A DNA stretch of 60,433 bases, the filler included, from Methanobacteriota archaeon (GTDB taxonomy: Archaea > JACRDV01), in the NCBI GenBank assembly GCA_024860865.1. It is 9 parts of 9 records of this genome, joined end to end, with 100 filler letters (N's around TTAATTAATTAA, not from the genome) between each part and the next. Parts side by side here need not be neighbours in the genome. Positions count along the whole stretch, not along the records: positions 4,922 to 9,838 come from JACRDV010000041.1; 8 more parts are not named here. The stretch is one strand, 5' to 3'. The notes under the pieces are model-generated. The model saw nothing but the letters and a program-made list of their open reading frames with translations, was not told the origin of the DNA and did not search any database. Shown in pieces: positions 2,520-60,433 of the stretch. Position 1 is the first letter of the stretch. Each line of letters starts with the position of its first letter. A program made the translations under genes and the position numbers.

Positions 2520-2807
2520 ATGTATTTCTTACTAAACTCAAAACCAAAAGGCCCAATAGATTTAGCCCTTCTAAAAAGGGTACTAACTTTACTAGAGAAC
2601 CCAAAAATCAAATTTGTATGCCATTATGGTTACTTGAACGAACCCGGTGGCATGCACGTTGTGGAAGTAGAAACTATTGATGAGTTAAAAACGACTCTTT
2701 CTCAGTTCCTAAGAACTGGAGAGGTTACAGAGGTGATACCGCTAACTACTCATGAAGAGACAGTTAATGCTCTCAAAAACATGATCAAAAAGTTTGAGTC
2801 TAAATAA
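2520..2807 (+). CDS. Small hypothetical protein, DUF3303-like
   Basis: 95-aa ORF with GGMHVVEVE...EVIPL pattern. Confidence 0.5.
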   Translation: MYFLLNSKPKGPIDLALLKRVLTLLENPKIKFVCHYGYLNEPGGMHVVEVETIDELKTTLSQFLRTGEVTEVIPLTTHEETVNALKNMIKKFESK

Positions 2808-2879
2808 GCAGAAAAGTAACAAAAGTGCTATACAAAGAAAAATGCAACAAGTGTCATCTTGTTTCACTCAAAAAACTTT

Positions 2880-4607
2880 TTAATTCTTCATTGCTTTCCC
2901 TTTTCTTTTTTCTTGTTTTTCATAAAGATATCTAACTTCCTCAACCGTATTAACTTGGTTTACATTTTTATCTTCTCTTATCTTGACAAATCTAGGAAAT
3001 CTTAACCCAAAGGAACTCGTATGTTTCTCATGAGGTGATGGTTGTATCTCTTCATATACAATTTCCCAAACAACATTAGGCTTAAACCAAACATTAGGCT
3101 CTAATTCCGCAACTATCTCCTCTGGTTTTGTTTTAGCAATAATTTCTTTAAACATTTTAGTAAATTCTTCTAATTGTTCATCTGTAAGACCGCTACCTAC
3201 TTTTGTAATAGTATAAAATTTCTCATCTTCTTCATTTCGAACAGCAACTAAATAACTTCCAAATGTACCAGCGCGTTTGCCTTTTCCATACCAAGCCCCG
3301 ACTACGGCCACATCGATAGTTTCAACTTCGGGTTTGAACTTTAACCAAAGAAACTCTCTTCTCCCTGCTCTATAAACAGAGTTTAATTCTTTTACGAGCA
3401 ATCCCTCATGTCCAGCCTTTAGCGATTCTTTCATAAATTTTTCAATTTCTTTTTTGTTCCCACTAACAAGTTGCTTAACAACACTAACTTTATCCGGAAT
3501 TGGTTTGATTGTATTCTCTAGTATTTGTCTACGCTTCAGATATGGTTCGCCCATCAAGTTTTTATTGTTTAATAATAAGATATCGAAAAACTGAATTGAA
3601 ACTGGAATTTCAGTGATTTTTTCTTTAATTTCATATTTTCTTCTTCTTTTCAAAACTTCTTGGAAAGGCATAGGCTTGCCAGTAATTGAGTCGGTGGCGA
3701 TCATCTCTCCATCAACAATTGCAGTCTTTGCTTTAATAGCAGTTTTTTGTGCTTCAACTAAATCCGGAAAAGAAGAAGTGACATCTTCCTGCCTTCTAGT
3801 AAATAACTTAATTTTTTCATTATCTTTGTGAACCAGTATTCTCATTCCATCTAACTTCCATTCCCAAGCAGCTTTACCACCCATTCTTTCCAGTATTTCA
3901 TCAATAGTATCTACGCGCTGCGCTAACATCACATTTAATGGCCTTCCAATAATAGGTCCAACTTTTTCTAAACCTTTAGCACCTTCTTCAGCAGCTATTT
4001 TTGCTACTTCACCATGATCATTCAGGTAGGTATATGCCTGCTCAACAAGCTCTGGTGGTACATTAAAAGCTTCAGCAATAGCATCTCGCAATCTACCTTC
4101 TGCAACTCCAGTTCGCGATTCACCTAAAACTGTGCGAACAATAAACCTTGCTTCAAGTGGATCAGCATCATTTAAAAGTCCGATGACAGAGTTAATTCTT
4201 AGATCTTGTGAACCTGCACCAGTCATCTCCGGTATTTTTGCAAGAATTTCGTGAACTCGCTTTACTGTTAAAGGCTTTCTGAAGAGAGTTACTTGCCTTT
4301 TTTTCTCGAGCAATTTTTGAACAACTACTCCTAAATCTCCTGTTTTTGCAAATTCTTTATCAATGACATTCATATCATAGCCAGTTGCTGAAGCGACTGC
4401 GCGCTTAACTAATTGAACTCCCATACCAAGTTCAAGAGAAACATAAGCAGGATAAACTCGGCCCAACAGCAGCAAGACAACTGAGTTCGTATCTTCTGGA
4501 GAGGTCTCTTTTAACAAACTGACTATAAGCTGAGTTTTTTCAAGATAACTTGGGGTTTTTTCGAGCTTTTCCATGTAATCTGCAAGTTTCGAAAACATCA
4601 ATGACAT
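2880..4607 (-). CDS. lig: ATP-dependent DNA ligase
   Basis: EWKLDGMR motif I, EGLLVK, WLKFK, LRFPRF...REDK. Confidence 0.97.
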   Translation of the reverse strand: MSLMFSKLADYMEKLEKTPSYLEKTQLIVSLLKETSPEDTNSVVLLLLGRVYPAYVSLELGMGVQLVKRAVASATGYDMNVIDKEFAKTGDLGVVVQKLLEKKRQVTLFRKPLTVKRVHEILAKIPEMTGAGSQDLRINSVIGLLNDADPLEARFIVRTVLGESRTGVAEGRLRDAIAEAFNVPPELVEQAYTYLNDHGEVAKIAAEEGAKGLEKVGPIIGRPLNVMLAQRVDTIDEILERMGGKAAWEWKLDGMRILVHKDNEKIKLFTRRQEDVTSSFPDLVEAQKTAIKAKTAIVDGEMIATDSITGKPMPFQEVLKRRRKYEIKEKITEIPVSIQFFDILLLNNKNLMGEPYLKRRQILENTIKPIPDKVSVVKQLVSGNKKEIEKFMKESLKAGHEGLLVKELNSVYRAGRREFLWLKFKPEVETIDVAVVGAWYGKGKRAGTFGSYLVAVRNEEDEKFYTITKVGSGLTDEQLEEFTKMFKEIIAKTKPEEIVAELEPNVWFKPNVVWEIVYEEIQPSPHEKHTSSFGLRFPRFVKIREDKNVNQVNTVEEVRYLYEKQEKRKGKAMKN

Positions 4608-4821: not shown

Positions 4822-4921
4822 NNNNNNNNNNNNNNNNNNNNNNNNNNNNNNNNNNNNNNNNNNNNTTAATTAATTAANNNNNNNNNNNNNNNNNNNNNNN
4901 NNNNNNNNNNNNNNNNNNNNN
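4822..4921. other. Artificial contig spacer; identical spacers at 9839-9938, 17209-17308, 24027-24126, 38530-38629, 42823-42922, 55366-55465, 57473-57572
   Basis: N44-TTAATTAATTAA-N44, stops in all six frames. Confidence 0.99.
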
Positions 4922-5395: not shown

Positions 5396-5416
5396 GATAT
5401 ACTAAACTCCCCCTCA

Positions 5417-5441
5417 TAAGTTACTTATGATAAGTAACTTA
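5417..5441. promoter_or_regulatory. Perfect 25-bp palindrome, probable operator
   Basis: TAAGTTACTTAT-G-ATAAGTAACTTA between the antitoxin-like gene and leuS. Confidence 0.6.
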
Positions 5442-5549
5442 GTATTATTTAACAACCAAAGAACATTTGGCAGTAAGATCTAGAACAATTAAAGAAAGAC
5501 AGAAAAACCTAAAAATTATTAATCTTGACTTACTATCTAGGAGGACGCT

Positions 5550-8490
5550 ATGGTTAATTGGCAAGAGATTGAACAAAAATGGCAAACCCGCTGGGAAGAA
5601 GCTAAGATATTTGAAGCTGATCCTCAACCTGGAAAGCCAAAGTTTTATTTGACGGTTGCTTACCCGTAAGCTAAGGCTAAACCTGGCCGGGAATTTGAGC
5701 GGCCGTCTGCATATTGGTCATGCTAGAACGTATACAATACCTGATGTAGTTGCTCGATTTAAACGAGCGCAGGGGTATGCCGTTCTATTTCCAATGGCTT
5801 GGCATGTAACTGGAACTCCAATCATTGGGATTAGCAAAAGAATTGAAAAGAAAGATGAGTTTGCAATAGAGGTATACAATAAAGTTCATGGAGTTCCAAA
5901 GGATATATTGATGACTTTTACTGATCCATTTAAGCTAGTTGACTATTTTTCAAAAGTTTCAAAGCAAGATATAGGTAGTCTAGGCTGCTCAATCGATTGG
6001 AGAAGAGTTTTTACTACAACTGACCTCGCTTATCAGCGCTTCATTCAATGGCAGTACAACAAACTACACCAACAAGGTTTAGTCATAAAAGGAACTTTCC
6101 GTGTTAAGTGGTGCCCTAGCTGCAAAAATCCAGTTGGCGAACATGACCTCTTAACTGGCGAAACTGCTGATATTAAAGACTATGTTTTGATTAAATTTAA
6201 GTTTAATAGTGAATTTTTACCAGCTGCAACTTTGCGACCAGAAACTGTGCTAGGTGTTACCAACATGTGGATAAACCCTCATGCGAGTTACTCGAGAGTT
6301 AAAGTGAATGGAGAAACTTGGATCGTAAGTGAGGCCTCAGTTAAAAAACTAAAATATCTAGATAAGAATATCCAAGTGGTTCAGACATTCAAGGGAATTG
6401 AACTAATTGGTAAGTTCTGTTATAACCCGGTTACAAATGACCCGATTATTGTTTTGCCAACTAGTTTTGTGAATCCAGAAGAAGCCTCTGGTGTAGTTAT
6501 GTCAGTGCCAAGTCATGCTCCTTATGATTATATAGCATTGAAAGAGCTGCAGCAAAATCCTGCTGAGCTTAGGAATTATAATATCGATGCAGGAAAGGTC
6601 AAGCAGATCAAAATGATACCTCTTATCGAAAATCCAGGGTTTGGGGAGTTTCCTGCTGCTGAAATAGTTGAGAGGATGGGCATTACAAGACAAACCGATC
6701 CTAAGCTCGAAGATGCCACAGTTGAGATCTATACTTTTGAATATTCAAAAGGAACTATGCGAAAGAGCATTAAAAAATATGGAGGAATGCATGTTTCAGT
6801 TGCTCGAGAAACAATTGAGCAGGATATGGTAAACGCTGGCTCAGCCGACTATATGTACGATTTCACTGAAAAGCCAGTAACTTGCAGATGTGGAACTGAA
6901 TGCGTAATAAAAACAGTTCAAGATCAATGGTTTTTGAAATATGCGGATGAAAATTGGAAAAAGAAAGCGACTGATTGCTTCAGTCACATGAAAATATATC
7001 CACAAGAGATTTTGCCTGAATTTTTAAACACAATTAACTGGCTAAAACAAAGAGCTTGCTCAAGACAAGTTGGTTTGGGTACAACTTTACCTTGGGATCC
7101 AAGGTGGCTTATTGAATCTTTAAGTGACTCTACAATCTATATGGCATTCTATATAATATCAAAATACATTAACTTAGGGTTAATTAAACCCGAGCACTTA
7201 ACCGAAGAAATATTTGATTTTATTTTTTTGGGGAAGGGAGATTCTAAATCTCTAAGTAAGAAAGTTAGTTTAAAAGAAGAAGTACTTCAAAAGCTAAAGA
7301 ATGAATTTTACTACTGGTATCCGTTAGACGTTAGATTTTCAGCAAAGGATTTAATTCCAAATCATTTAACTTTCTTTGTTTTTCACCATGCAGCAATTTT
7401 CCCGCCTGAGCTCTGCCCGAGAGCGATTTCAGTCAATGGATATGTTTCAGTGGAAGGGCAGAAGATGTCCAAGTCTAAGGGATTACAAGTTAATCTTGGT
7501 AATGCTTCCACCAAATATGGCGCTGATTTAACTAGGTTTTACTTGATCTCGGTGGCTGAGTTAATTCAAGATGCAGACTGGCGGGAACAAAATGTACAAG
7601 CTACGGAAAAACAGCTTGAGCGCTTTTGGAATTTAGCCAATGAAATAATAGCCTTGAGAGGCGAGGAGGCAGCGGGTGAATTTAAGACGATTGATCGTTG
7701 GTTATTAAATCAAATACAAAAAAGAATAACCGAAACAACTGAAGCGTTTGAGAACTTTGAGCTAAGAAGAGCATTGCACTCTGCGTTCTTCCTTTTCATG
7801 CAAGATGTCAGATGGTATATAAGGCGAAGTGAGCCTGAGATGAGCGATGTAAAAAGAAAAGCTACCGTTGCCAGTTTGCTCCATAAAGCTTTAAACGTCT
7901 GGCTCAGGTTACTGGCTCCGTTTATACCGCATATCTGTGAAGAACTTTGGGAAAAAATTGAAAAACCATTTGTTTCAAAAGCACCTTGGCCAGCAATTGA
8001 ACGCCAGCTAGTTGATGAAAATGCAGAATTGGCAGAAAACCTGATTGAAAAAACACTAGCAGATGTTGAGGAAATAATCAAAGTAACAAATATCAAGCCA
8101 ACAAAAGTTTACTTTTACACTGTTCCAACTTGGAAATTGAAAGTCTTTCGTGAAATAATTAAATCAGCACTAACTGAAAAATCGAATATAAGTAAAATAA
8201 TGAAGACTGCTATGGAAGACCTAGAAATAAAGAAACACGGAGCTGAAGTCGCAAAGTTTGTACAGCAGAAGGCAACAGAGGTGGGCTCTCTCTCAAAATC
8301 AGAAATTGAAAAGTTGGAGAAATTCACCTTGTCTGAACATAATATTTTAGCTGAAGCTTCTCAGTTCTTTAAACAAGCACTTGGGGCGAATTTGGTTCAA
8401 GTTTATAGTGCAGATGACCCAAATCGGTATGATCCTCAAAATAAAGCAAAGTTTGCAGTTCCATTTAGACCTGCTATTTATATTGAGTAG
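5550..8490 (+). CDS. leuS: Leucyl-tRNA synthetase, two exons: join(5550..5668,5694..8490), 971 aa
   Basis: AGGAGG RBS 5539-5544; exon 1 MVNWQEIEQKWQTRW...KFYLTVAYP; HIGH motif, CP1 editing domain (ATLRPET), KMSKS. Confidence 0.96.
5669..5693 (+). other. 25-nt bulge-helix-bulge (BHB) mRNA intron candidate in leuS
   Basis: Central helix CCCG(5663-66)/CGGG(5688-91), bulges TAA(5667-69) and AAT(5692-94), inner and outer stems; removal restores YPYLSGRLHIGH. Confidence 0.88.
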
Positions 8491-8580: not shown

Positions 8581-9597
8581 TCACATAAATTTTAAAGATT
8601 TTTTGATTGCAATTTTCAATTTTTCTCTAAGCTCTAACGGTATGGCAGCTATTTTATACATTCTCCCCTCAATACCCATTTTTCCAACAAAAAGAATAGA
8701 GTGAAGCCTGAGCACACCTATTATAGAAGTTGGCGGTTGCTCCACCCACCAGTACCCAATTTCACCATTAAATCTTCTTGAAAGTTGCAAATATTTCGTC
8801 CATCCTCCTTCACTCAAAACAAAATTAATCGCTTCTATCGACTTCTTTGGCAATTTCTTCACAATGGTAAAAAGCTTATCGGAATGGAGTGTTTCAACTA
8901 TTAGCTTAACTTTTTGCCTTTTCTTACCTTTTGTTGATATTCCCAGCGCATTACAAATGCCATTCACCCACTCACCAGGATACTTGTTTAACATACTCGT
9001 TGCTGTAGACATAGGATTTATTATAATATCTTCGGCTTCCTTCAGCATACTCAACTCGAATTGTCCCATCACTACATCCATCATATCAGGACCTGCAAAC
9101 CTGGATCTTTTGAATACCTCTTCGTTACTTAACTTAATGTGAAGTATTCCTGCGAATCTGTGGATGTTGCCCCAAGGGTGTATTCTTCCCATGATTATTC
9201 TACCTGGCTTATATTCCTCGTTGGCATTCCAGACTTTGGCTGGGTATATTTTTCCATCTTTTAAGTCTCTTACCACCAAGTCAACATCATGGCATTCTAG
9301 AATTTCAAACTTTCCTAATCTCATCTGCTCTAGTTGAAGCATCTTTATTTTCAGATCTGATTCAATGTCAAACTTTTCTACAAATTCTCTGACAATAGTT
9401 TTGCCAGTTAAAGGTCGTATTCTCTCTGACATAAACCACTCGATAAAGTCCTTAAAAATAAACTCTCTGTTAAGATTTTCATTATAATATGGAAAATCTT
9501 TAAAAGCATTTTCAAACTCATGAGAGTAATTCTCTACGGTATACTCGAAAAGCATCTGTTTACAGTTTTCTTCAGTTATTTTATTATTTTTTTCCAT
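8581..9597 (-). CDS. Hypothetical protein
   Basis: 338-aa ORF with no motif I can assign confidently. Confidence 0.7.
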   Translation of the reverse strand: MEKNNKITEENCKQMLFEYTVENYSHEFENAFKDFPYYNENLNREFIFKDFIEWFMSERIRPLTGKTIVREFVEKFDIESDLKIKMLQLEQMRLGKFEILECHDVDLVVRDLKDGKIYPAKVWNANEEYKPGRIIMGRIHPWGNIHRFAGILHIKLSNEEVFKRSRFAGPDMMDVVMGQFELSMLKEAEDIIINPMSTATSMLNKYPGEWVNGICNALGISTKGKKRQKVKLIVETLHSDKLFTIVKKLPKKSIEAINFVLSEGGWTKYLQLSRRFNGEIGYWWVEQPPTSIIGVLRLHSILFVGKMGIEGRMYKIAAIPLELREKLKIAIKKSLKFM

Positions 9598-9838: not shown

Positions 9839-9938
9839 NNNNNNNNNNNNNNNNNNNNNNNNNNNNNNNNNNNNNNNNNNNNTTAATTAATTAANNNNNN
9901 NNNNNNNNNNNNNNNNNNNNNNNNNNNNNNNNNNNNNN

Positions 9939-17123: not shown

Positions 17124-17308
17124 GATGGTGCAGTTAAGGTTAAGAAAAAAAGGTTTTATTATAAAGTTATTGAAACCTATGGAACAATAGAAATAGCTGA
17201 TTTTGAAANNNNNNNNNNNNNNNNNNNNNNNNNNNNNNNNNNNNNNNNNNNNTTAATTAATTAANNNNNNNNNNNNNNNNNNNNNNNNNNNNNNNNNNNN
17301 NNNNNNNN

Positions 17309-24026: not shown

Positions 24027-24126
24027 NNNNNNNNNNNNNNNNNNNNNNNNNNNNNNNNNNNNNNNNNNNNTTAATTAATTAANNNNNNNNNNNNNNNNNN
24101 NNNNNNNNNNNNNNNNNNNNNNNNNN

Positions 24127-31993: not shown

Positions 31994-32413
31994 CTATTTT
32001 TGAAAAACTATTGGATCGATTCTTTTTATTTTTGGAATTTTATCGAAATCTTTATCCGCTGATATTATCTCGGTTACTCCAAGTTTTCTCATCGTGGCAA
32101 TATGTAAACAATCATATGAGCTTATTCGAAATTTCTCATAAAATTCAATAGCTTCTCGTGTTATACCATAGTCAATATCATTTATAACCATATCTAAAGA
32201 ATAAATTGCGTCTGTCATATCTTTGACCTCATTTTCAAAACCATATTTTCTCAAGGCATTTGCAACTTCTAAAATAACTAATGTAGAAATAGCAGCTTTA
32301 ATTTTGCCTTCTTCAATATTTTGAATAATATTTGCACAAGCTTCTCCATATTTAGCATCTAAAATTTTAGCATAAAAGAAAATATTGCTATCAACGTATT
32401 TTGATAATTCCAA
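31994..32413 (-). CDS. vapC: VapC PIN toxin
   Basis: YVDSNIF, YDCLHIATM, IISADKDFD. Confidence 0.9.
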   Translation of the reverse strand: MELSKYVDSNIFFYAKILDAKYGEACANIIQNIEEGKIKAAISTLVILEVANALRKYGFENEVKDMTDAIYSLDMVINDIDYGITREAIEFYEKFRISSYDCLHIATMRKLGVTEIISADKDFDKIPKIKRIDPIVFQK

Positions 32414-34605: not shown

Positions 34606-35424
34606 ATGGCACTAAAATTCACCACAGAACCTCTGAGTCATTTAGAGCAAAAAATCTATCTAATTTTGGAAAGCGAAGGAAGGAACGTTTTCACACTTGA
34701 AGAACTGAAGAAATTAAAACTTCCAATAAAGTATGGCCACTTGCGAGTGCTTCTACATCGCTTAGAAAAGAAAGGGTGGATAACTTCTGTTCGAAAAGGA
34801 GTTTATCTACGCTTGCCAGCAGTGGCTGCTGTTGAGGGCAAAGTTTACCTTGAAGATCCATTTGCCGTTACTTTGAAAGTATTTGATGGATACTTAGCTT
34901 TCCAGAGTGCATTGAGAGTTCATGGACTAAGTGAATATCAGCCTTTCACAATTTTTATAGCAACGAAGAACAAATCAGAAACTCTCAAACTTTTAAAACA
35001 GTATGAAGTCAAGGCAATCAAGCTTGGGGAGAGGTATACTGGATTTGAGAAAAAAGATAATTATCTGGTGTCTTCTGTAGCTAAGACTTTCTTCGATTGC
35101 TTCTATCATCCCCAGCATGCAGGCGGATACTCTGAAGTTCTTAAATCGTTGCACGCTTGCAAAGAGATGGACTGGAATGAATTCCTTTCCTATTTCAAGA
35201 AGTTCGCTTCGAACAGCTTATGCCAGAAGGTTGGCTATCTTTTAACTCTGCTCAAAGAAACAGACTACAAAGTTCCAAATCGAGTGATTGAATACTTAAA
35301 GAATCGAGTTCGTGTAAAGACACGTCTTGATTCAAAGATATCTGGAGGAAAACTAAACAAAGACTGGCTTATAATTGACAACTTGGGCAAAATGGAATTA
35401 CTTTCATGGTGGTTGCATGGTTGA
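34606..35424 (+). CDS. Type IV TA antitoxin, AbiEi family
   Basis: wHTH RLEKKGWI..VRKGVY, YLAFQSALRVHGL, KTFFDC. Confidence 0.88.
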   Translation: MALKFTTEPLSHLEQKIYLILESEGRNVFTLEELKKLKLPIKYGHLRVLLHRLEKKGWITSVRKGVYLRLPAVAAVEGKVYLEDPFAVTLKVFDGYLAFQSALRVHGLSEYQPFTIFIATKNKSETLKLLKQYEVKAIKLGERYTGFEKKDNYLVSSVAKTFFDCFYHPQHAGGYSEVLKSLHACKEMDWNEFLSYFKKFASNSLCQKVGYLLTLLKETDYKVPNRVIEYLKNRVRVKTRLDSKISGGKLNKDWLIIDNLGKMELLSWWLHG

Positions 35425-36226
35425 ACTGAGAGAAGCAAGAAAAATAGCTGCAAAGATTGGCTTAGGACTCCAGTATGTTTTGAAAGAAGCGAGAGTCTTT
35501 GATATATGGGCGAAGCTCAGTCCGATTATACTATCAAAAGAATTGGCCTCTCAGATCACCATAATCTGCAAAGGTGGTACAGTACTAAACAAGGTTTTTC
35601 TCAAGGGTATAGGAAGATTTTCTGAGGATTTGGATTTCGATGCATACTTTACAAAAAAGCTTAGCAAGAAGGAAAAGATGGCGTTCCTAGATAAGAACGT
35701 TTTATTCAATCTCAGGACCAGCTATCAAATAGAAAGACCAAGATTGATGAAGGATGTTGTAAGGTTTACCTGTAGTTTTGTAAATGAAATGGGAGCACAG
35801 GACTGTGTTTTTGTTGAGTTTAACCTGGAGCCAAAAGGCTATAGCGCTTCTGAGATCAAGGAAGCTTACAGTGAGATATTGAACATAGCGCCGGTCAAAA
35901 TTCCATCATACTCGTTTCCAGTTCTTGTAGCGAAAAAGATCAAGACATTCTATGAAAGAGGGAGCGGAAAAGATCTCTATGACATTTTCTATAGCCTTAA
36001 AATGGTGAAAGATGTTAAAGAAATAATTAATGTGCTAAAGAGCGTTTTGAAATTCGAGGGAATTGAATACAAAGATTTTGTTAAGGAATTCATCAGAAAA
36101 CTTGGTGATGAGAAAAGCATAGCAAGAGTGCATGCATCGACGAATCCTTACATCCCAAGAAAGCTAAGGGTTGACTGGATTGAAATTGCGGCGAAAGTGA
36201 AGGATGAGCTAGAACCTTATTTGTGA
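35417..36226 (+). CDS. Type IV TA nucleotidyltransferase toxin, AbiEii family
   Basis: KGGTVL, RFSEDLDFD, KDLYD. Confidence 0.9.
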   Translation: MVELREARKIAAKIGLGLQYVLKEARVFDIWAKLSPIILSKELASQITIICKGGTVLNKVFLKGIGRFSEDLDFDAYFTKKLSKKEKMAFLDKNVLFNLRTSYQIERPRLMKDVVRFTCSFVNEMGAQDCVFVEFNLEPKGYSASEIKEAYSEILNIAPVKIPSYSFPVLVAKKIKTFYERGSGKDLYDIFYSLKMVKDVKEIINVLKSVLKFEGIEYKDFVKEFIRKLGDEKSIARVHASTNPYIPRKLRVDWIEIAAKVKDELEPYL

Positions 36227-38031: not shown

Positions 38032-38488
38032 ATGCCCTATGCTTTAGCATTGTACTGCAATGGGCATATCGCTTCTTCAAGGCTATCTTGCCCAAATTCA
38101 AGGAGTGTCGGTTTTTCTATCCGAGTCAAGCCTGATCATAGGTCAATTGAGCAAGGCCCTAATCACAAAAATTAGAGAATGCGACTTATTCATTGTTCTT
38201 TATAGTAAGAATTCCCAGAGCTCAACATATGTTCAACAGGAAATAGGTGTTGCAAAAGGCAATAACAAAATTATAATTCCTATACTACTGGACGCAGACG
38301 CTAGACCAGATGCCATGTTACAAGGTGTCAGCTATCTTTCAATCTACGATGAAGAAAAGAGAAATAGGCAGTTACCATTGTTATATAACTACATTCTGCA
38401 AGAGTCGCAGAGGAAGAATGCTTCTCAAGCACTTTTAGTATTGGGTGTCATTATACTGTTGGGCTATGCACTATTTAGAGATAGATAA
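38032..38488 (+). pseudogene. TIR-domain protein with C-terminal TM helix, N-terminus apparently decayed
   Basis: IRECDLFIVLYSKNSQSSTYVQQEIGVA...IIPI; the usual FISHS first strand is out of frame or degenerate. Confidence 0.6.
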
Positions 38489-38629
38489 TTATGAAGCAAA
38501 AATCAAAATTCAAAACGAACTGAGATAGGNNNNNNNNNNNNNNNNNNNNNNNNNNNNNNNNNNNNNNNNNNNNTTAATTAATTAANNNNNNNNNNNNNNN
38601 NNNNNNNNNNNNNNNNNNNNNNNNNNNNN

Positions 38630-41121: not shown

Positions 41122-41763
41122 ATGGCACAAGATAGAGCACAGAGAATTGCGGGAAAAATTAGGGATGGAACCAAAAAACAGGTTGAAAAAATTATTTCAG
41201 AAGCAATGGTTAGAGCTAACGAAATAAAGCAGCGCGCTGAAATGGCAGCAAAGGAGAAGAAAAAGCAAATTGTCGAGAAAGGACAAATACAGTGTAAGCT
41301 TGAAGAGCAGAGAATTATTGCTGAAGCCAAAATTAAAGCGAGACAGCTTAAGCTTAATGCTCAGGAAGAACTTTTAAATGAAGCTTTTAAAAGAGCCGAA
41401 GAACAGTTAAAAAAGATTGTTGAAAAGCCGGAGTATAAAAGCCATTTGCAACATTTGATTGAAGAAGCAGTTTCAAGCATAGGAAGCAGAGATCTTGAGA
41501 TAGTCTGTGGAGAGCGCGAAAGGGCAGTTCTTAAACAGAATAACTTTTTAGACGCGCTTTCGAAAGCTATCTCATCTAAAATGAATGCTCCAGTAAATTT
41601 AGACATTTCAAGTGAAACTGCAAATAAAATTGGCGGAGTCATAGTTCGAACAAAAGATAGAAGGATCGAAGTTGATAATACATTTGAAGCTAGAATGCAA
41701 CGTCTCAAGGATTCATTAAGAACCAAAGTTGCACATATTTTGTTTTCAAAAGAAATAGCATAG
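41122..41763 (+). CDS. atpE: A-type ATP synthase subunit E
   Basis: Coiled N-terminus, IGGVIV...VDNTFEAR. Confidence 0.92.
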   Translation: MAQDRAQRIAGKIRDGTKKQVEKIISEAMVRANEIKQRAEMAAKEKKKQIVEKGQIQCKLEEQRIIAEAKIKARQLKLNAQEELLNEAFKRAEEQLKKIVEKPEYKSHLQHLIEEAVSSIGSRDLEIVCGERERAVLKQNNFLDALSKAISSKMNAPVNLDISSETANKIGGVIVRTKDRRIEVDNTFEARMQRLKDSLRTKVAHILFSKEIA

Positions 41764-42822: not shown

Positions 42823-42922
42823 NNNNNNNNNNNNNNNNNNNNNNNNNNNNNNNNNNNNNNNNNNNNTTAATTAATTAANNNNNNNNNNNNNNNNNNNNNN
42901 NNNNNNNNNNNNNNNNNNNNNN

Positions 42923-49530: not shown

Positions 49531-50428
49531 ATGTACTTTGACTTAGCTGTTATTGGAAACCTTACGCTTGACCATATAGTAACGCCATTTACTGAAATCA
49601 ATACTTTTGGCGGAACAGCAGCTTATACTAGCATTACAGCGAGAAGATTAGGCAGTTCAGTTGGAATAGTTTCTAAAATTGGATCTGATTTTCCACAAAC
49701 ATATCTTAACCAATTAAGAAAAGAAGATGTTGATCTCTATTGTGTTGAGGTTTCAAACGCAACAACGCAATTTGAACTAGTGTACGATCACAACTGGAAT
49801 AGAAGACTTAAATTAAAAGCACAATGTGCTAAAATCCTTCCAGAAGATATTCCTAAAAAATTTTTTGATACTAAGATCATTCATTTTGGTCCAGTTTTTC
49901 AGGAAATTGATTATAGAATAGTATCGTTTGTAAAAGATAACTTTACTGGCGAAATTTCACTGAGCCTTCAAGGACTGGTTCGAGTAGTTAAAAATGATAC
50001 TATTGAAATTTCTCATCCTTCTGATCTCGACCGGATTTTGGAAGCTGTAGATATTCTCTTTGCTAATGAGACAGAGATCATTTTCGATCCAAGTAAAGAA
50101 CTTAATCAAAACATAGAGATATTCAAAAAACTCGGCCCGAAGATTATCATCATCACATTAGGTAAGAAAGGTTCGATTATTTTTTCAGGCGATGATAGCT
50201 TTCATTATTCCACCAGTTAAGGCAGAAACTCGAGATCCCACGGGTGCTGGCGATTCATTTGTTGGAGGTTTTATTGGCGAATATCTTAAAACTAAGGACA
50301 TTAAGCGGGCTGGACTAGTTGGTTCCGTGGCAGCTTCTTTTGTAATTGAGGATTATGGGCCTTTTAATTTCCCAAAAAGCCCAAATGAGATTTTTAAGCG
50401 CTTAAGAAGCCAAAATATAGCTTTTTAG
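49531..50428 (+). pseudogene. PfkB/ribokinase-family kinase with a 1-nt frameshift near 50200 (mutation or sequencing error)
   Basis: GGTAAY and TLGKKGS in one frame, DPTGAGDSF in the next; deleting one base gives normal spacing. Confidence 0.85.
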
Positions 50429-50531
50429 ATATAGAGAAGGAGTCTGACATTAGTCTGACAAAAACGAGACATTTATATTGCTGTGAATACTAAAAGAGAG
50501 ACGCAGACGGTTCTTTGGAGGTAAATAAGGT

Positions 50532-50972
50532 ATGGGATTCTTTGATAAACTAAAAGAATGGTTCCATATTGGCGAGGAAAGAGAGCCAGAAGAGGCTGCG
50601 CCAAAAGTGGAGGAGTCAATCCAATTTAATGAAAATTTAAAACCTGAGTCAGTTGAGTCTCGATCAGATTCTCAAGCGAGCGAAATCTTAGCTGATTTTC
50701 CTTCTCCTGCTATAGAGACAATTGAACCAATTAAACTTAATGAAACGACTGAAGCAGCATATGAAGTACCTAAGATTGAGGAAATTGAATTAAATAGACC
50801 AATTGAAGAATCTAAGGTAGAGCCTTTAATTGATGAAATCAAAGTTGATGAAATAAAAGTACAACAACCAATTGAAGAACCTAAAGTTGAAGAGATAATA
50901 CCTCTCACTGTAAAGACTCGGGCTAAGAAAGGGAGAAGAAGTCGCGGCCGACCAAGAAAAAGATTATCTTAG
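50532..50972 (+). CDS. Acidic low-complexity protein with basic AT-hook-like tail
   Basis: GGAGGT RBS; MGFFDKLKEWF, Glu/Pro-rich repeats, RRSRGRPRKR. Confidence 0.7.
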   Translation: MGFFDKLKEWFHIGEEREPEEAAPKVEESIQFNENLKPESVESRSDSQASEILADFPSPAIETIEPIKLNETTEAAYEVPKIEEIELNRPIEESKVEPLIDEIKVDEIKVQQPIEEPKVEEIIPLTVKTRAKKGRRSRGRPRKRLS

Positions 50973-51781: not shown

Positions 51782-52195
51782 TTATTGTTCCATTAATTTT
51801 AACAATTCAGCTGTACTAAATACTCTTATTTCTTTTTTCCCTTCATAATCAGGATCATTGGTCCAAATACTATTGCAATTCAAAGCTAGATAACAAGCAA
51901 CATAGGGCACATCTTTTACATCCTCTTTCATTATTGCTTTAGCGTTTTCTTTGTAAGCTTCATATTCATCGGCCGTAATTATTGTTATTTTCTCAAAAAT
52001 TAGCGCCATTAATAGTTCAAACTCATCTTTAGTTAATCCAGCTTTTTCGCATATTTCAGATTCATACTTGTAAATCTCATCAAAGACAAAATCAGGTGAA
52101 ACAAATTCAAACTTGTTGCTCATTATGATTTCTCGAGCTTTGCTATCTTTGACCAAAGCAGCTATAATCATGTTTGCGTCAATGACAATTTTCAT
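51782..52195 (-). CDS. PIN-domain toxin
   Basis: IVIDANMII, DVKDVPYVA, IWTNDPD. Confidence 0.9.
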   Translation of the reverse strand: MKIVIDANMIIAALVKDSKAREIIMSNKFEFVSPDFVFDEIYKYESEICEKAGLTKDEFELLMALIFEKITIITADEYEAYKENAKAIMKEDVKDVPYVACYLALNCNSIWTNDPDYEGKKEIRVFSTAELLKLMEQ

Positions 52196-55315: not shown

Positions 55316-55465
55316 AAGATCACCGTCACTTCATATTGAAAAAGAGCACTATTAAAATTTTGGGTNNNNNNNNNNNNNNNNNNNNNNNNNNNNNNNNNNN
55401 NNNNNNNNNTTAATTAATTAANNNNNNNNNNNNNNNNNNNNNNNNNNNNNNNNNNNNNNNNNNNN

Positions 55466-56194
55466 AATTCTAGTTTTAACGAAGTTTCTCTCTGCCCTTC
55501 TTATTTTTTTGAGCCTGCTTCTTGCCCTGCAATTGTTTTTAGACTGAAGTTTAGATCTTCTGAGCTCGAAAAGAATTCTTTTGTGCTTTACATCCCTTCC
55601 AAAATAGAGCTGCTTCAAAACTTTGTTTTTAGCTGGGTCAAAAACTGTTGCTGCAGCAAGGCTCGCAGAGCCAACATCTATTCCAACAACAGTTTCTCCT
55701 ATAGAGACCTCAAAATTTTTTTGAATGACTGCTTTGATTTTGTTTTTAACCAAAAGAAAGCTTTTGAAATTCCAGTTATCTCTGAGCAAATCTTGAAACC
55801 TATGGTAGTTCCTGTTTTGCTTAATTGGAATAGCAATCCTTTTTCCAATTGTTCTGAGCAATATTACTGGATTTCCCCTTTCAGTTTTAGCAAGCTTGAA
55901 AAGCCTAGTATCGAAAGTAACTGGGATATTTTTTGGCATTCCATTCATTCTACTGTTCCAAGCAAACCTCCTTGCCTGCTCCACGAGCTGGCTCGGGAGA
56001 TTTGTTTTCTCTCTAACAATTTTGTAAGTAAGGTAGTGGAGCTCAGTTGAAGTTTTTGGGTGTAGATTATTGATTGCATCAAAACAAATTCTAAAGGCCT
56101 CTGAATACTCAAAAGAAAGATTAGCTAAGGCTGTCTCTTTGATATTTGTTAATGGCAGTGTATCTAGTTCAATGGCTCTAAAAGAGGTCTTCAT
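55466..56194 (-). CDS. tnpB: TnpB-family RNA-guided nuclease (5' part)
   Basis: LPSQL, VVGIDVG RuvC-I, basic bridge region. Confidence 0.85.
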
Positions 56195-57313: not shown

Positions 57314-57572
57314 CCTGCAACAAGATAAAAATTTCTTCATCAGTTTTCACGGTAAAAGGTTTGAAAAATTTAGTATATTAATATTTAATACACTACACTT
57401 AGACCTGGGAGCAACTAATATGGCGATAAGAAGTGAATTCAAAAATTTGATTAGAAATATAGAGCATGCTATNNNNNNNNNNNNNNNNNNNNNNNNNNNN
57501 NNNNNNNNNNNNNNNNTTAATTAATTAANNNNNNNNNNNNNNNNNNNNNNNNNNNNNNNNNNNNNNNNNNNN

Positions 57573-59639: not shown

Positions 59640-60433
59640 CCTCGGCGAGAAGTCCCCTTTCAAAGGGATGAGAGCGATTACTTTCGGGGACCTCTCCCCA
59701 AAAATCATATGTAGGGGAACCGAATTCAGTTGATGCGATGCTGAGCTACAAGTTTCGCATATACCCATCTAAGACAATTAAGCAAAAGCTGGTTGAGCAG
59801 CTTGAGCTGTGCAGATGGCTTTACAATCGCCTACTAGAGGAATTGGAAAAAGCCAAGAAAGAAGAAAGAGAACTGAAACCAATAGAAACGCAAGCCCTAA
59901 TTGTGAAACTGAAAGAAGAGAAGCCAGGGCTTAAGACAGTGTATTCTAAAGTCCTGCAAATGGTGAACTATCAGCTCTGGTCAAATGTTAGAGCACTATC
60001 GGAGCTAAAGAAGAATGGTAAAAAAATCGGAAAGCTTCGGTTCAAGGGCAAGGGCTGGTTCAAAACTCTCAACTATAACCAATCGGGCTTTAGAATAAAT
60101 GGCAAGAAACTAATGCCATCTAAAATTGGAGAAATTCCAATAAAAATTCACAGAGAAATCGATGGCAAAATCAAAGGAGTTATAGTGAAGAAAGAATGCT
60201 CAGGTAAGTGGTTTGCGATAGTTCAAGTAGATGCTGAACCAGAACCACTACAAAAGACTGGAAAAGTTGTTGGAATTGACGTAGGAATAAAACATTTCCT
60301 TACTGATAGCGAAGGACATCAGATAGAGAATCCAAAATTCTATGAAAAATCCTTAAACCGCGTAAGGATTGGACAGAAGAAATTATCAAAGAAACAAAAA
60401 GGTTCTAAAAACAGAGAGAAGCAAAGAATAAAA
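59640..60433 (+). mobile_element. IS200/IS605 (IS1341-type) element: structured left end plus tnpB, runs off the window
   Basis: GAGAAGTCCCC...GGGGACCTCTC stem directly before tnpB; no tnpA upstream. Confidence 0.75.
59738..60433 (+). CDS. tnpB: TnpB nuclease (5' part, not in the ORF track)
   Basis: MLSYKFRIYPS, CRWLYN, LRFKG, YNQSGF, VVGIDVGIKHFLTDS, KGSKNREK. Confidence 0.93.
   Translation, partial: MLSYKFRIYPSKTIKQKLVEQLELCRWLYNRLLEELEKAKKEERELKPIETQALIVKLKEEKPGLKTVYSKVLQMVNYQLWSNVRALSELKKNGKKIGKLRFKGKGWFKTLNYNQSGFRINGKKLMPSKIGEIPIKIHREIDGKIKGVIVKKECSGKWFAIVQVDAEPEPLQKTGKVVGIDVGIKHFLTDSEGHQIENPKFYEKSLNRVRIGQKKLSKKQKGSKNREKQRIK

What the first reader, a model, noticed from the sequence alone, without database searches (positions are those of the whole stretch)
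5651..5707. tRNA-type bulge-helix-bulge intron inside the leucyl-tRNA synthetase mRNA
Seen: the leuS start (RBS AGGAGG, ATG5550) reads 39 codons to ...TVAYP and hits TAA (5667-69), while the rest of the enzyme is in another frame. The intervening DNA folds as a BHB: 4-bp central helix CCCG(5663-66)/CGGG(5688-91); 3-nt bulges UAA(5667-69) and AAU(5692-94); inner stem GCUAAGG/CCUGGC with one bulged A and loop CUAAA; outer stem GACGGUUGCUUA/UGAGCGGCCGUC with one extra U beside the 3' bulge. Cutting after the second base of each bulge, the archaeal EndA rule, removes exactly 5669-5693 (25 nt) and gives TAC CCG TA|T TTG AGC GGC = YPYLSGRLHIGH and a 971-aa LeuRS. Structure and protein homology independently give the same splice. 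Established: EndA and RtcB splice BHB introns in tRNA and rRNA; the classic mRNA case is crenarchaeal cbf5. I do not know of one in an aminoacyl-tRNA synthetase gene. Inference: this archaeon splices an essential mRNA and may carry more such micro-introns annotated as frameshifts.
Basis: partly seen in the sequence, partly recalled or inferred. Interest (0 to 1): 0.96.

Follow-up and report, generated by a model that had tools for sequence, protein, structure and literature searches.

The report
Likely tRNA-type intron in leucyl-tRNA synthetase gene
An uncultivated groundwater archaeon carries a 25-base insert in its essential leucyl-tRNA synthetase gene, and the insert folds like the introns that archaea cut out of tRNAs, so it is probably only the second kind of archaeal protein gene known to need this splicing, although no RNA data yet show the cut.

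Summary
leuS starts at ATG 5550 behind a strong ribosome-binding site and reads 39 conserved codons into TAA 5667-5669. The other 931 codons run from 5695 in the +1 frame.

The one flaw is a 3' bulge of 4 nt instead of 3.

Cutting after the second bulge base removes 5669-5693 and rebuilds a Tyr codon. That Tyr is invariant in 119 of 119 homologues, and the product aligns to them without a gap.

The insert is real. Contigs from two studies carry it, and one strain is about 2% diverged. Of its listed substitutions, 25 are synonymous and 12 are not, so the interrupted gene is still under selection. The helix arms are GC-rich and use rare codons.

Not shown: spliced RNA, the splicing enzymes EndA and RtcB (no genome is held), or any relative with the intron. 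No second such intron lies in the window, which is nine contigs joined by linkers.

Verdict: a very probable BHB pre-mRNA intron, a new member of a kind known so far only from crenarchaeal cbf5.

The parts
5539..5544 (+). Shine-Dalgarno-like AGGAGG, 5 nt upstream of the leuS start
   Evidence: Read directly from the sequence. A variant strain carries a different but also G-rich stretch at this place (table 5c).
5550..5668 (+). leuS exon 1: 39 codons plus the first two bases (TA) of the junction Tyr codon
   Evidence: ORF 5550..5669. The peptide is collinear with LeuRS N-termini of Hadesarchaea-type homologues. The same peptide is called on Logan contigs of runs X1 and X2.
5651..5662 (+). 5' arm of the 12-bp outer helix (h), made of exon-1 codons
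   Evidence: Minimum-energy fold. Includes rare codons: ACG is 9% of Thr codons and CCG 16% of Pro codons.
5663..5666 (+). 5' strand of the 4-bp central helix (H), pairing with 5688-5691
   Evidence: Pair probabilities 0.986-0.999.
5667..5669 (+). 5' three-nt bulge, which is also the in-frame TAA stop. Predicted cut between 5668 and 5669.
   Evidence: Unpaired with P of at least 0.999. The cut rule follows from PMC4090602, section 4.
5669..5693 (+). Predicted 25-nt BHB intron
   Evidence: Removing it restores the frame and gives a gapless match to the family profile, 223.5 bits. It is a single copy in the window. It is present with 0 gaps in the X1 and X2 contigs.
5670..5687 (+). Inner hairpin (h'): 6 bp with one bulged A (5674) and a 5-nt loop (5677-5681)
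   Evidence: Minimum-energy fold. Pair probabilities 0.91-0.99.
5688..5691 (+). 3' strand of the central helix
5692..5695 (+). 3' bulge, 4 nt in the minimum-energy fold (canonical is 3). Predicted cut between 5693 and 5694.
   Evidence: All four bases are unpaired with P of at least 0.996. The strict 3-nt alternative costs 3.4 kcal/mol more.
5696..5707 (+). 3' arm of the outer helix, made of exon-2 codons
   Evidence: Rare codons: CGT is 5% of Arg codons and CTG 6% of Leu codons.
5694..8490 (+). leuS exon 2: the last base of the Tyr codon, 931 codons and the stop
   Evidence: ORF and translation. LeuRS Pfam domains and 48-49% identity to archaeal LeuRS. On record at NCBI nr as a 931-aa protein on a 4917-bp contig.

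Best explanation
Positions 5669-5693 are a 25-nt archaeal bulge-helix-bulge (BHB) intron inside the coding sequence of the leucyl-tRNA synthetase mRNA.

Proposed mechanism: the transcript folds so that exon-1 codons 5651-5662 pair with exon-2 codons 5696-5707. This presents two bulges, 5667-5669 and 5692-5694/5, across a 4-bp helix. The tRNA splicing endonuclease EndA cuts after the second base of each bulge. An RtcB-type ligase then joins 5668 to 5694. That makes a Tyr codon (TA + T) and a continuous 971-codon LeuRS frame. Unspliced mRNA ends at the TAA formed by the 5' bulge and yields only a 39-aa peptide.

Shown here: the structure, its statistical distinctness, the exact fit of the predicted cuts to protein homology, the presence of the insert in independent assemblies, and continued purifying selection on the interrupted gene.

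Inferred: cleavage by EndA, ligation by RtcB, and that splicing happens in vivo.
For: 1. The minimum-energy fold is the BHB: -28.9 kcal/mol, z = -3.99, 0 of 200 shuffles as stable. It is kept in a 400-nt context, with central-helix pair probabilities of at least 0.986.

2. It is the only one of 1045 loose BHB hits in the window with an outer helix of at least 12 bp and an inner helix of at least 4 bp. There were 0 such hits in 8 simulated sequences.

3. Cut rule: the first two anticodon bases lie in the central helix and the splice site is at 37/38, so the cut falls after the second bulge base (PMC4090602 section 4). Applied here, it removes exactly 25 nt. Known tRNA introns are 11-129 nt, with medians of 12-25 nt (same passage).

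4. The spliced product aligns without a gap to a profile of 119 homologous N-termini at 223.5 bits. A +1-frameshift product scores 206.7 bits and exon 2 alone 154.3 bits. The junction Tyr sits in a motif present in 119 of 119 homologues.

5. The contigs of X1 (5549-6416) and X2 (5540-7649, 43 differences) both cross the site with 0 gaps. They come from two studies. The exon-1 peptide ends at the same residue in both.

6. Of the 37 listed window-versus-X2 substitutions in leuS, 25 are synonymous and 12 are not. P = 2.7e-6 against a 30% neutral expectation. Both strains carry the insert, so selection continued after it arose.

7. The BHB region is 58% GC against 36% for the window, and the exonic helix arms use rare codons: ACG 9%, CGT 5%, CTG 6%.
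Against: No RNA evidence was obtainable.

The 3' bulge is 4 nt in the energy model, not the canonical 3. EndA types with strict specificity (alpha4, alpha'2) might not accept it (PMC6379350).

EndA and RtcB could not be looked for, because no genome is held and none of 50 scanned window ORFs matches them.

There is no covariation. No listed strain difference falls in 5651-5707, so the structure is untested by evolution. Six of the 43 X2 differences were not listed and could lie there.

No relative carries an intron at this site. 16 of 16 distant loci are uninterrupted, and no other short exon-1-like ORF is in the protein collection.

Run X1 may be the sample the window was assembled from, so only X2 is surely independent.
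Confidence: 0.78

Rival explanations
1. The 25 nt stay in the mRNA, and the ribosome makes a programmed +1 frameshift at or just before the TAA (CCG-TAA). The resulting LeuRS carries 8 extra residues, and Lys replaces the conserved Tyr.
For: The two frames differ by +1, and a stop codon directly after a Pro codon is the kind of context used by known +1 sites (recalled, not tested). The frameshift product still scores 206.7 bits against the family profile. A second +1 frame break lies in a pfkB-family gene of the window.
Against: It scores 17 bits less than the spliced product. It puts an 8-residue insertion into a motif just before HIGH that is present without a gap in 119 of 119 homologues, and it loses the invariant Tyr. 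It does not explain the BHB geometry, the 12-bp exon-exon helix or the rare codons.
Confidence: 0.06
2. This leuS copy is a pseudogene disabled by a 25-nt insertion, and a functional LeuRS is encoded elsewhere in the unsampled genome.
For: The genome is not available, so a second copy cannot be excluded. The assembly is fragmentary (nine short contigs) and holds at least one other frame-broken gene.
Against: Both strains carry the insert, yet their divergence is 25 synonymous to 12 nonsynonymous substitutions, P = 2.7e-6 against neutrality. Both exons are intact over 971 codons. A random insertion would not form a BHB whose cut sites restore the frame exactly.
Confidence: 0.07
3. LeuRS is made in two pieces, a 39-aa peptide and a 931-aa protein started at TTG 5695, which assemble without a covalent link.
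For: TTG 5695 is a possible start, and the public annotation calls a 931-aa protein from it. Split LeuRS is known from Aquifex (recalled, not checked here).
Against: No Shine-Dalgarno-like sequence precedes 5695, whereas 5550 has AGGAGG. The break falls inside a motif that is invariant in 119 of 119 homologues and would lose the Tyr. Exon 2 alone scores 69 bits less than the spliced form. The BHB is left unexplained.
Confidence: 0.04
4. The insert is an assembly or sequencing artefact.
For: Coverage is low, with word depth of about 5-12, and the assembly is fragmentary.
Against: The window and two separately assembled Logan contigs from two studies all carry it with 0 gaps. One of them is a strain about 2% diverged. 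Exon 1 ends at the same residue in both contigs.
Confidence: 0.01

Closest known systems
BHB intron in the cbf5 (pseudouridine synthase) pre-mRNA of Crenarchaeota (Desulfurococcales and Sulfolobales; Watanabe 2002, Yoshinari 2006, Yokobori 2009)
   Same: A short tRNA-type intron inside a protein-coding sequence. Its splice sites lie in a BHB-like structure, and the gene is read as frameshifted or truncated by annotation pipelines (PMC2738675: abstract and passages).
   Different: The host gene differs (an aminoacyl-tRNA synthetase). The host lineage differs: an unplaced, long-branch groundwater archaeon whose LeuRS does not group with any named clade. The motif here is near-canonical hBHBh', whereas cbf5 introns often have the relaxed motif linked to the heterotetrameric EndA. 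Splicing of cbf5 was shown by experiment; here it is only predicted.
BHB intron in the 5' UTR of HVO_1309 mRNA of Haloferax volcanii (Schwarz et al. 2020)
   Same: A BHB in an mRNA cut by EndA. It shows that a strict alpha2-type enzyme can act on an mRNA (PMC7714728 passages).
   Different: That intron lies in the untranslated leader and does not interrupt a reading frame. Here, splicing would be needed to make the protein at all.
Canonical archaeal pre-tRNA introns at position 37/38
   Same: The same geometry: a 4-bp helix, bulges carrying the splice sites and a cut after the second bulge base. The size class is also the same, with medians of 12-25 nt (PMC4090602; PMC6379350).
   Different: There is no tRNA body (ARAGORN and Rfam find nothing). 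The outer helix is 12 bp of coding sequence rather than a 5-bp anticodon stem. The 3' bulge is one base longer.
HAC1/XBP1 unconventional mRNA splicing in eukaryotes (Ire1 plus tRNA ligase/RtcB)
   Same: Spliceosome-independent removal of a short intron from an mRNA by an endonuclease and a tRNA ligase. It changes the reading frame of the product (mentioned in PMC4090602 and PMC13149111).
   Different: The endonuclease differs (Ire1, not EndA), as does the RNA motif (twin stem-loops, not a BHB). It is regulated by stress, and no regulation is shown here.

Membership tests
Archaeal BHB (hBHBh') intron cut by EndA | 4-bp central helix with a 3-nt bulge on the 5' strand carrying the 5' splice site | tested here: met
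   5663-5666 pairs with 5688-5691 (P of at least 0.986). Bulge 5667-5669 is unpaired with P of at least 0.999.
Archaeal BHB (hBHBh') intron cut by EndA | 3-nt bulge on the 3' strand, symmetric to the first | tested here: inconclusive
   The minimum-energy fold gives a 4-nt bulge, 5692-5695. The strict 3-nt form exists but is 3.4 kcal/mol less stable. Whether EndA tolerates this was not testable.
Archaeal BHB (hBHBh') intron cut by EndA | Flanking helices h and h' on both sides of the BHB core | tested here: met
   The outer helix is 12 bp (5651-5662 with 5696-5707). The inner helix is 6 bp with one bulged A.
Archaeal BHB (hBHBh') intron cut by EndA | Cutting after the second base of each bulge gives a functional joined RNA | tested here: met
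   Removing 5669-5693 gives an open 971-codon frame and a gapless profile match of 223.5 bits. The junction Tyr is invariant in 119 of 119 homologues.
Archaeal BHB (hBHBh') intron cut by EndA | Intron length within the known range | tested here: met
   25 nt. Known archaeal tRNA introns are 11-129 nt, with medians of 12-25 nt (PMC4090602).
Archaeal BHB (hBHBh') intron cut by EndA | Spliced RNA, or the excised or circular intron, exists in vivo | not testable with these tools
   No listed run is on record as RNA. Only DNA contigs could be laid.
Archaeal BHB (hBHBh') intron cut by EndA | The organism encodes EndA and an RtcB-type ligase | not testable with these tools
   No genome is held. 0 of 50 window ORFs scanned against Pfam match either family. 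The window is only about 60 kb, made of nine contigs.
cbf5 pre-mRNA intron family of Crenarchaeota | The intron sits in the cbf5 gene of Desulfurococcales or Sulfolobales | tested here: not met
   The host gene is leuS. The LeuRS does not group with Crenarchaeota. It is the same mechanism class, not the same intron family.
Programmed +1 ribosomal frameshift site | The shifted product, with the insert retained, is the conserved functional protein | tested here: not met
   The shifted product needs an 8-residue insertion in an invariant motif and scores 17 bits below the spliced form.
Archaeal-type class I leucyl-tRNA synthetase | Class I catalytic core with the HIGH motif, the leucyl editing domain and the anticodon-binding domain | tested here: met
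   Precomputed Pfam families PF00133, PF09334, PF13603 and PF08264. E = 0 and 48-49% identity to archaeal LeuRS over 100% of the query. HIGH is present as HIGH just after the junction.

The most novel reading that the evidence does not exclude
BHB micro-introns in protein-coding genes are not a crenarchaeal oddity limited to cbf5. They occur in other, poorly sampled archaeal lineages, where pipelines record them as truncated or frameshifted genes. Here the public protein record is the 931-aa exon-2 ORF. In this organism, LeuRS synthesis would depend on the tRNA-splicing enzymes. That could tie production of an aminoacyl-tRNA synthetase to the cell's tRNA-maturation capacity, with the unspliced message ending at a stop codon built into the 5' splice site.
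Probability: 0.25. Interest if true: 0.8.

Novelty: new member of a known kind. Interest (0 to 1): 0.62.

Why it matters
Protein-coding BHB introns have been confirmed in only one archaeal gene family, cbf5, since 2002. One further case lies in an untranslated leader (PMC7714728; PMC2738675).

A near-canonical BHB intron in an essential aminoacyl-tRNA synthetase gene of an unrelated, uncultivated lineage would show three things:
- EndA/RtcB splicing of mRNA is more widespread than thought.
- Gene callers systematically mis-annotate such genes.
- Expression of a core translation enzyme can depend on the tRNA-splicing machinery.

It also offers a compact, well-defined substrate of about 60 nt for testing how EndA types handle a 4-nt 3' bulge. 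Six full-text searches found no report of a BHB intron in an aminoacyl-tRNA synthetase gene. Subscription-only papers are not covered by these searches.

Tried and rejected
**Genome and earlier notes.** The window's own genome is not held, so EndA type, RtcB, tRNA introns and a second leuS could not be checked.

**RNA evidence.** No RNA holder is listed. Runs X3 and X4 have no cover at the site.

**Close relatives.**
- A genome-contig scan gave 6 loci at 36-40% identity.
- A metagenome-contig scan gave 10 loci at 28-46% identity.
- All 16 loci have an uninterrupted leuS at this site.
- A search with the exon-1 peptide for other short exon-1-like ORFs found only its own cluster.
- The protein search found nothing closer than 49% apart from the window's own protein.

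**Placing the organism.** In a quick LeuRS tree, the window is an isolated long branch (0.67) with an unresolved position.

**Second intron in the window.**
- The BHB scan combined with ORF merging gave 47 candidates. All but leuS have weak helices or join neighbouring genes.
- The candidate at 2479-2494 lies between two separate small genes.
- The candidate at 41519-41546 in ATPase subunit E is in frame, is not the minimum-energy fold and is not required by homology.
- The intron sequence has no other copy in the window at up to 3 mismatches.

**tRNA mimicry or known RNA family.** There are 0 tRNAs and 0 Rfam matches.

**Translational bypassing.** I considered it from the sequence. The only CCG landing codon after the take-off CCG (5687-5689) leads into a stop within three codons, so I rejected it (sequence).

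**Transposon footprint or tandem duplication.** There are no direct repeats at the insert borders.

**Papers.** Supplementary files of papers were not consulted.
Full report
**1. What is in the sequence**

AGGAGG lies at 5539-5544. ATG 5550 opens a frame of 39 codons that ends ...TVAYP and runs into TAA at 5667-5669. A second frame, shifted by +1, is open from 5656 to 8490. From 5695 it reads LSGRLHIGH and continues as a leucyl-tRNA synthetase.

The 931-aa part matches archaeal LeuRS over its whole length at 48-49% identity, E = 0, with the expected Pfam families. The N-termini of the 119 listed homologues run on through the break point without interruption. Those that start MVNW..., which the named cluster members identify as Hadesarchaea, are collinear with exon 1. 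All 119 carry the motif [YF]PY..[GS]..H.GH.

Exon 1 supplies the residues up to the Pro, and exon 2 supplies everything from the residue after the Tyr. Only the Tyr itself is missing from both frames.

**2. The fold**

It has these parts:
- a 12-bp outer helix, 5651-5662 with 5696-5707
- a 4-bp central helix, 5663-5666 with 5688-5691
- a 3-nt bulge at 5667-5669
- an inner hairpin, 5670-5687, with one bulged A and a 5-nt loop

Its energy is -28.9 kcal/mol against -18.1 +/- 2.7 for shuffles. That gives z = -3.99, and 0 of 200 shuffles fold as well.

The same structure appears when 5500-5900 is folded. Central-helix pair probabilities are 0.986-0.999, and the bulge bases are unpaired with P of at least 0.996.

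The one departure from the textbook motif is a 4-nt 3' bulge (5692-5695). A strict 3-nt version (5662 paired with 5695, 5696 bulged) is 3.4 kcal/mol less stable.

**3. Is it more than chance?**

A simple BHB scanner run on both strands gave 1045 loose hits (introns of 12-150 nt, outer helix of at least 5 bp). This is the only hit with an outer helix of at least 12 bp and an inner helix of at least 4 bp. Eight simulated sequences with the same dinucleotide content gave 0 such hits each.

The stretch 5651-5707 is 58% GC in a 36% GC window. The exon codons that make the outer helix include rare ones: ACG is 9% of Thr codons, CGT 5% of Arg, CTG 6% of Leu and CCG 16% of Pro. This is what selection for an RNA helix laid over a coding sequence would produce.

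**4. Do the cuts fit?**

In archaeal pre-tRNAs the first two anticodon bases lie in the 4-bp helix and the intron follows position 37 (PMC4090602, section 4, passage read). The 5' cut therefore falls after the second bulge base, and by symmetry so does the 3' cut.

Applied here, the rule removes 5669-5693, which is 25 nt. [quoted passage not shown] TA from the 5' bulge joins T 5694 to make the missing Tyr codon, and the frame continues for 971 codons.

I scored three candidate products against a profile built from the N-termini of the 119 homologues:

| Product | Score (bits) | Alignment |
|---|---|---|
| Spliced, 25 nt removed | 223.5 | no gap |
| +1 frameshift at the stop | 206.7 | 8-residue insertion in the invariant motif |
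| Exon 2 alone | 154.3 | N-terminal part absent |

Structure and homology are independent lines of evidence, and they give the same splice.

**5. Is the insert real, and is the gene alive?**

No RNA run is listed for this sequence. DNA contigs from two studies could be laid on it.
- A contig of run X1 covers 5549-6416 with 3 differences and 0 gaps. It has a different upstream region.
- A contig of run X2 covers 5540-7649 with 43 differences and 0 gaps.

Runs X3 and X4 do not cover the site. X1 may be the window's own sample, so X2 is the sure independent witness.

The exon-1 peptide is on record from both contigs and ends at the same residue in each.

Of the 37 window-versus-X2 differences that were listed within leuS, 25 are synonymous and 12 are not. 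P = 2.7e-6 against a neutral share of 30%. Both strains carry the insert, so this selection acted on the interrupted gene. That argues strongly against a pseudogene.

No listed difference falls in 5651-5707, so there is no covariation evidence for or against the helices. Six of the 43 differences were not shown and could lie there.

**6. What could not be tested**

- No genome is held for the window.
- The window is nine contigs joined by linkers of N44, TTAATTAATTAA and N44. The leuS contig is 4922-9838, which is 4917 bp. This is the same length as the contig on which the 931-aa protein is recorded at NCBI nr. Genes on either side of a linker are therefore not true neighbours.
- None of 50 window ORFs scanned with Pfam is EndA or RtcB. 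There is no tRNA gene and no Rfam match.
- The lineage is poorly sampled. The closest LeuRS among 5.8 billion clustered proteins is 49% identical. Scans of genome and metagenome contigs found only relatives at 28-46% identity, and all 16 have an uninterrupted gene at this site. No other short exon-1-like ORF is on record. In a quick tree, the window's LeuRS is an isolated long branch of unresolved position.
- The EndA type, and therefore its tolerance for the 4-nt bulge, is unknown. Strict alpha4 and alpha'2 enzymes require the canonical motif, while (alpha-beta)2 and epsilon2 enzymes also accept relaxed ones (PMC6379350).

**7. Rival explanations**

- **Programmed +1 frameshift.** It would keep the 25 nt as 8 codons inside an invariant motif and lose the Tyr. 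It leaves the BHB unexplained.
- **Pseudogene.** The 25:12 substitution pattern contradicts it.
- **Two-piece enzyme.** It lacks a ribosome-binding site before 5695 and breaks the same motif.
- **Translational bypassing.** The only matching landing codon leads straight into a stop (sequence).
- **Assembly error.** Three separate assemblies exclude it.

I put the BHB intron at 0.78.

**8. More such introns?**

Combining the BHB scan with a test for ORF merging gave 47 candidates. Only leuS has strong helices and joins two halves of one gene.
- The candidate at 2479-2494 sits between two separate small genes.
- A BHB-like hairpin in ATPase subunit E (about 41510-41561) would remove 27 nt in frame. 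It is not the minimum-energy fold and homology does not require it.
- The only other broken gene found, a pfkB-family kinase, has a 1-nt frame change near 50200-50210. That is too small to be an intron.

It remains open for the rest of the genome.

**9. Comparison with what is known**

The class is known. BHB introns interrupt the cbf5 coding sequence in Desulfurococcales and Sulfolobales (PMC2738675: abstract and passages). In 2009 that paper stated that no archaeal pre-mRNA splicing had been confirmed for any gene other than cbf5.

A 2020 study of Haloferax added one BHB intron in the 5' leader of HVO_1309. It stated that cbf5 was the only other reported mRNA case (PMC7714728 passages).

Later papers I opened did not add coding-sequence cases in the passages I saw: PMC12397907, PMC13149111 and PMC12558985. 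Six full-text searches returned no report of a BHB intron in an aminoacyl-tRNA synthetase gene. The library lacks most subscription journals, and I saw no supplementary files.

This is therefore a new member of a known kind: a new host gene, a new lineage and a more canonical motif than is usual for cbf5.

**10. Verdict**

It remains unverified at the RNA level.

Interest is 0.62. It is a notable find for archaeal RNA biology and for gene annotation, but it is neither a new mechanism nor yet experimentally shown.

Noticed in passing
window 4822-4921, 9839-9938, 17209-17308, 24027-24126, 38530-38629, 42823-42922, 55366-55465, 57473-57572: The window is not one contiguous piece. Eight identical linkers (44 N, TTAATTAATTAA, 44 N) join nine contigs of about 2-14 kb. 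Genes on either side of a linker are not true neighbours, and the contigs may come from a binned assembly.
   Followed up: yes
window 49531-50430, break near 50200-50210: A pfkB-family sugar kinase gene is broken by a single-base (+1) frame change. The frame from 49531 stops at 50218-50220. The C-terminal ~75 codons, with the GAGD motif, continue in the +1 frame. It is too small to be an intron, so it is a sequencing error, a real frameshift mutation or a programmed shift.
   Followed up: partly
window 5399-5549: The region just upstream of leuS varies between strains. The X1 and X2 contigs skip about 100-109 nt (5440 to 5539 or 5548) and carry 1 or 9 other letters there, which gives a different ribosome-binding stretch. 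In the X2 strain the exon-1 ORF is called with 8 extra N-terminal residues.
   Followed up: partly
window 41510-41561 (+), inside the A/V-ATPase subunit E gene 41122-41763: A stable hairpin (-24.3 kcal/mol, z = -3.2) can be drawn as a strict BHB that would remove 27 nt in frame. The minimum-energy fold lacks the 5' bulge. Alignment to solved subunit E shows only a 6-residue length difference in a variable region. It is probably a chance match.
   Followed up: partly
proteins P0144 and P0145 (cluster of P0063): A Hadesarchaea assembly records LeuRS as two proteins of 289 and 666 aa on one 9963-bp contig, while cluster mates at 90% identity or more are single proteins of 963-971 aa. This could be a frameshift or another interruption. 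Its DNA could not be fetched.
   Followed up: no
window 2802-2872 (- strand), downstream of the DNA ligase gene 2880-4607: This is the only other BHB-scan hit with a 12-bp outer helix (70-nt spacing, inner helix only 2 bp). It lies in an intergenic stretch and is probably a terminator-like inverted repeat.
   Followed up: no
window 34606-36226, 38060-38488, 49-507, 31994-32413, 51782-52195, 59738-60433: Defence and mobile-element genes are scattered over the contigs: an AbiEi/AbiEii toxin-antitoxin pair, a TIR-domain protein, three PIN-domain proteins and an IS605 OrfB (TnpB-like) gene cut off by the window end.
   Followed up: no
window 8581-9597 (-), 55418-56194 (-), 50532-50972 (+): Three ORFs of 338, 258 and 146 aa have no Pfam match at E of 0.001 or better. 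The 338-aa ORF is the only other sizeable gene on the leuS contig.
   Followed up: no
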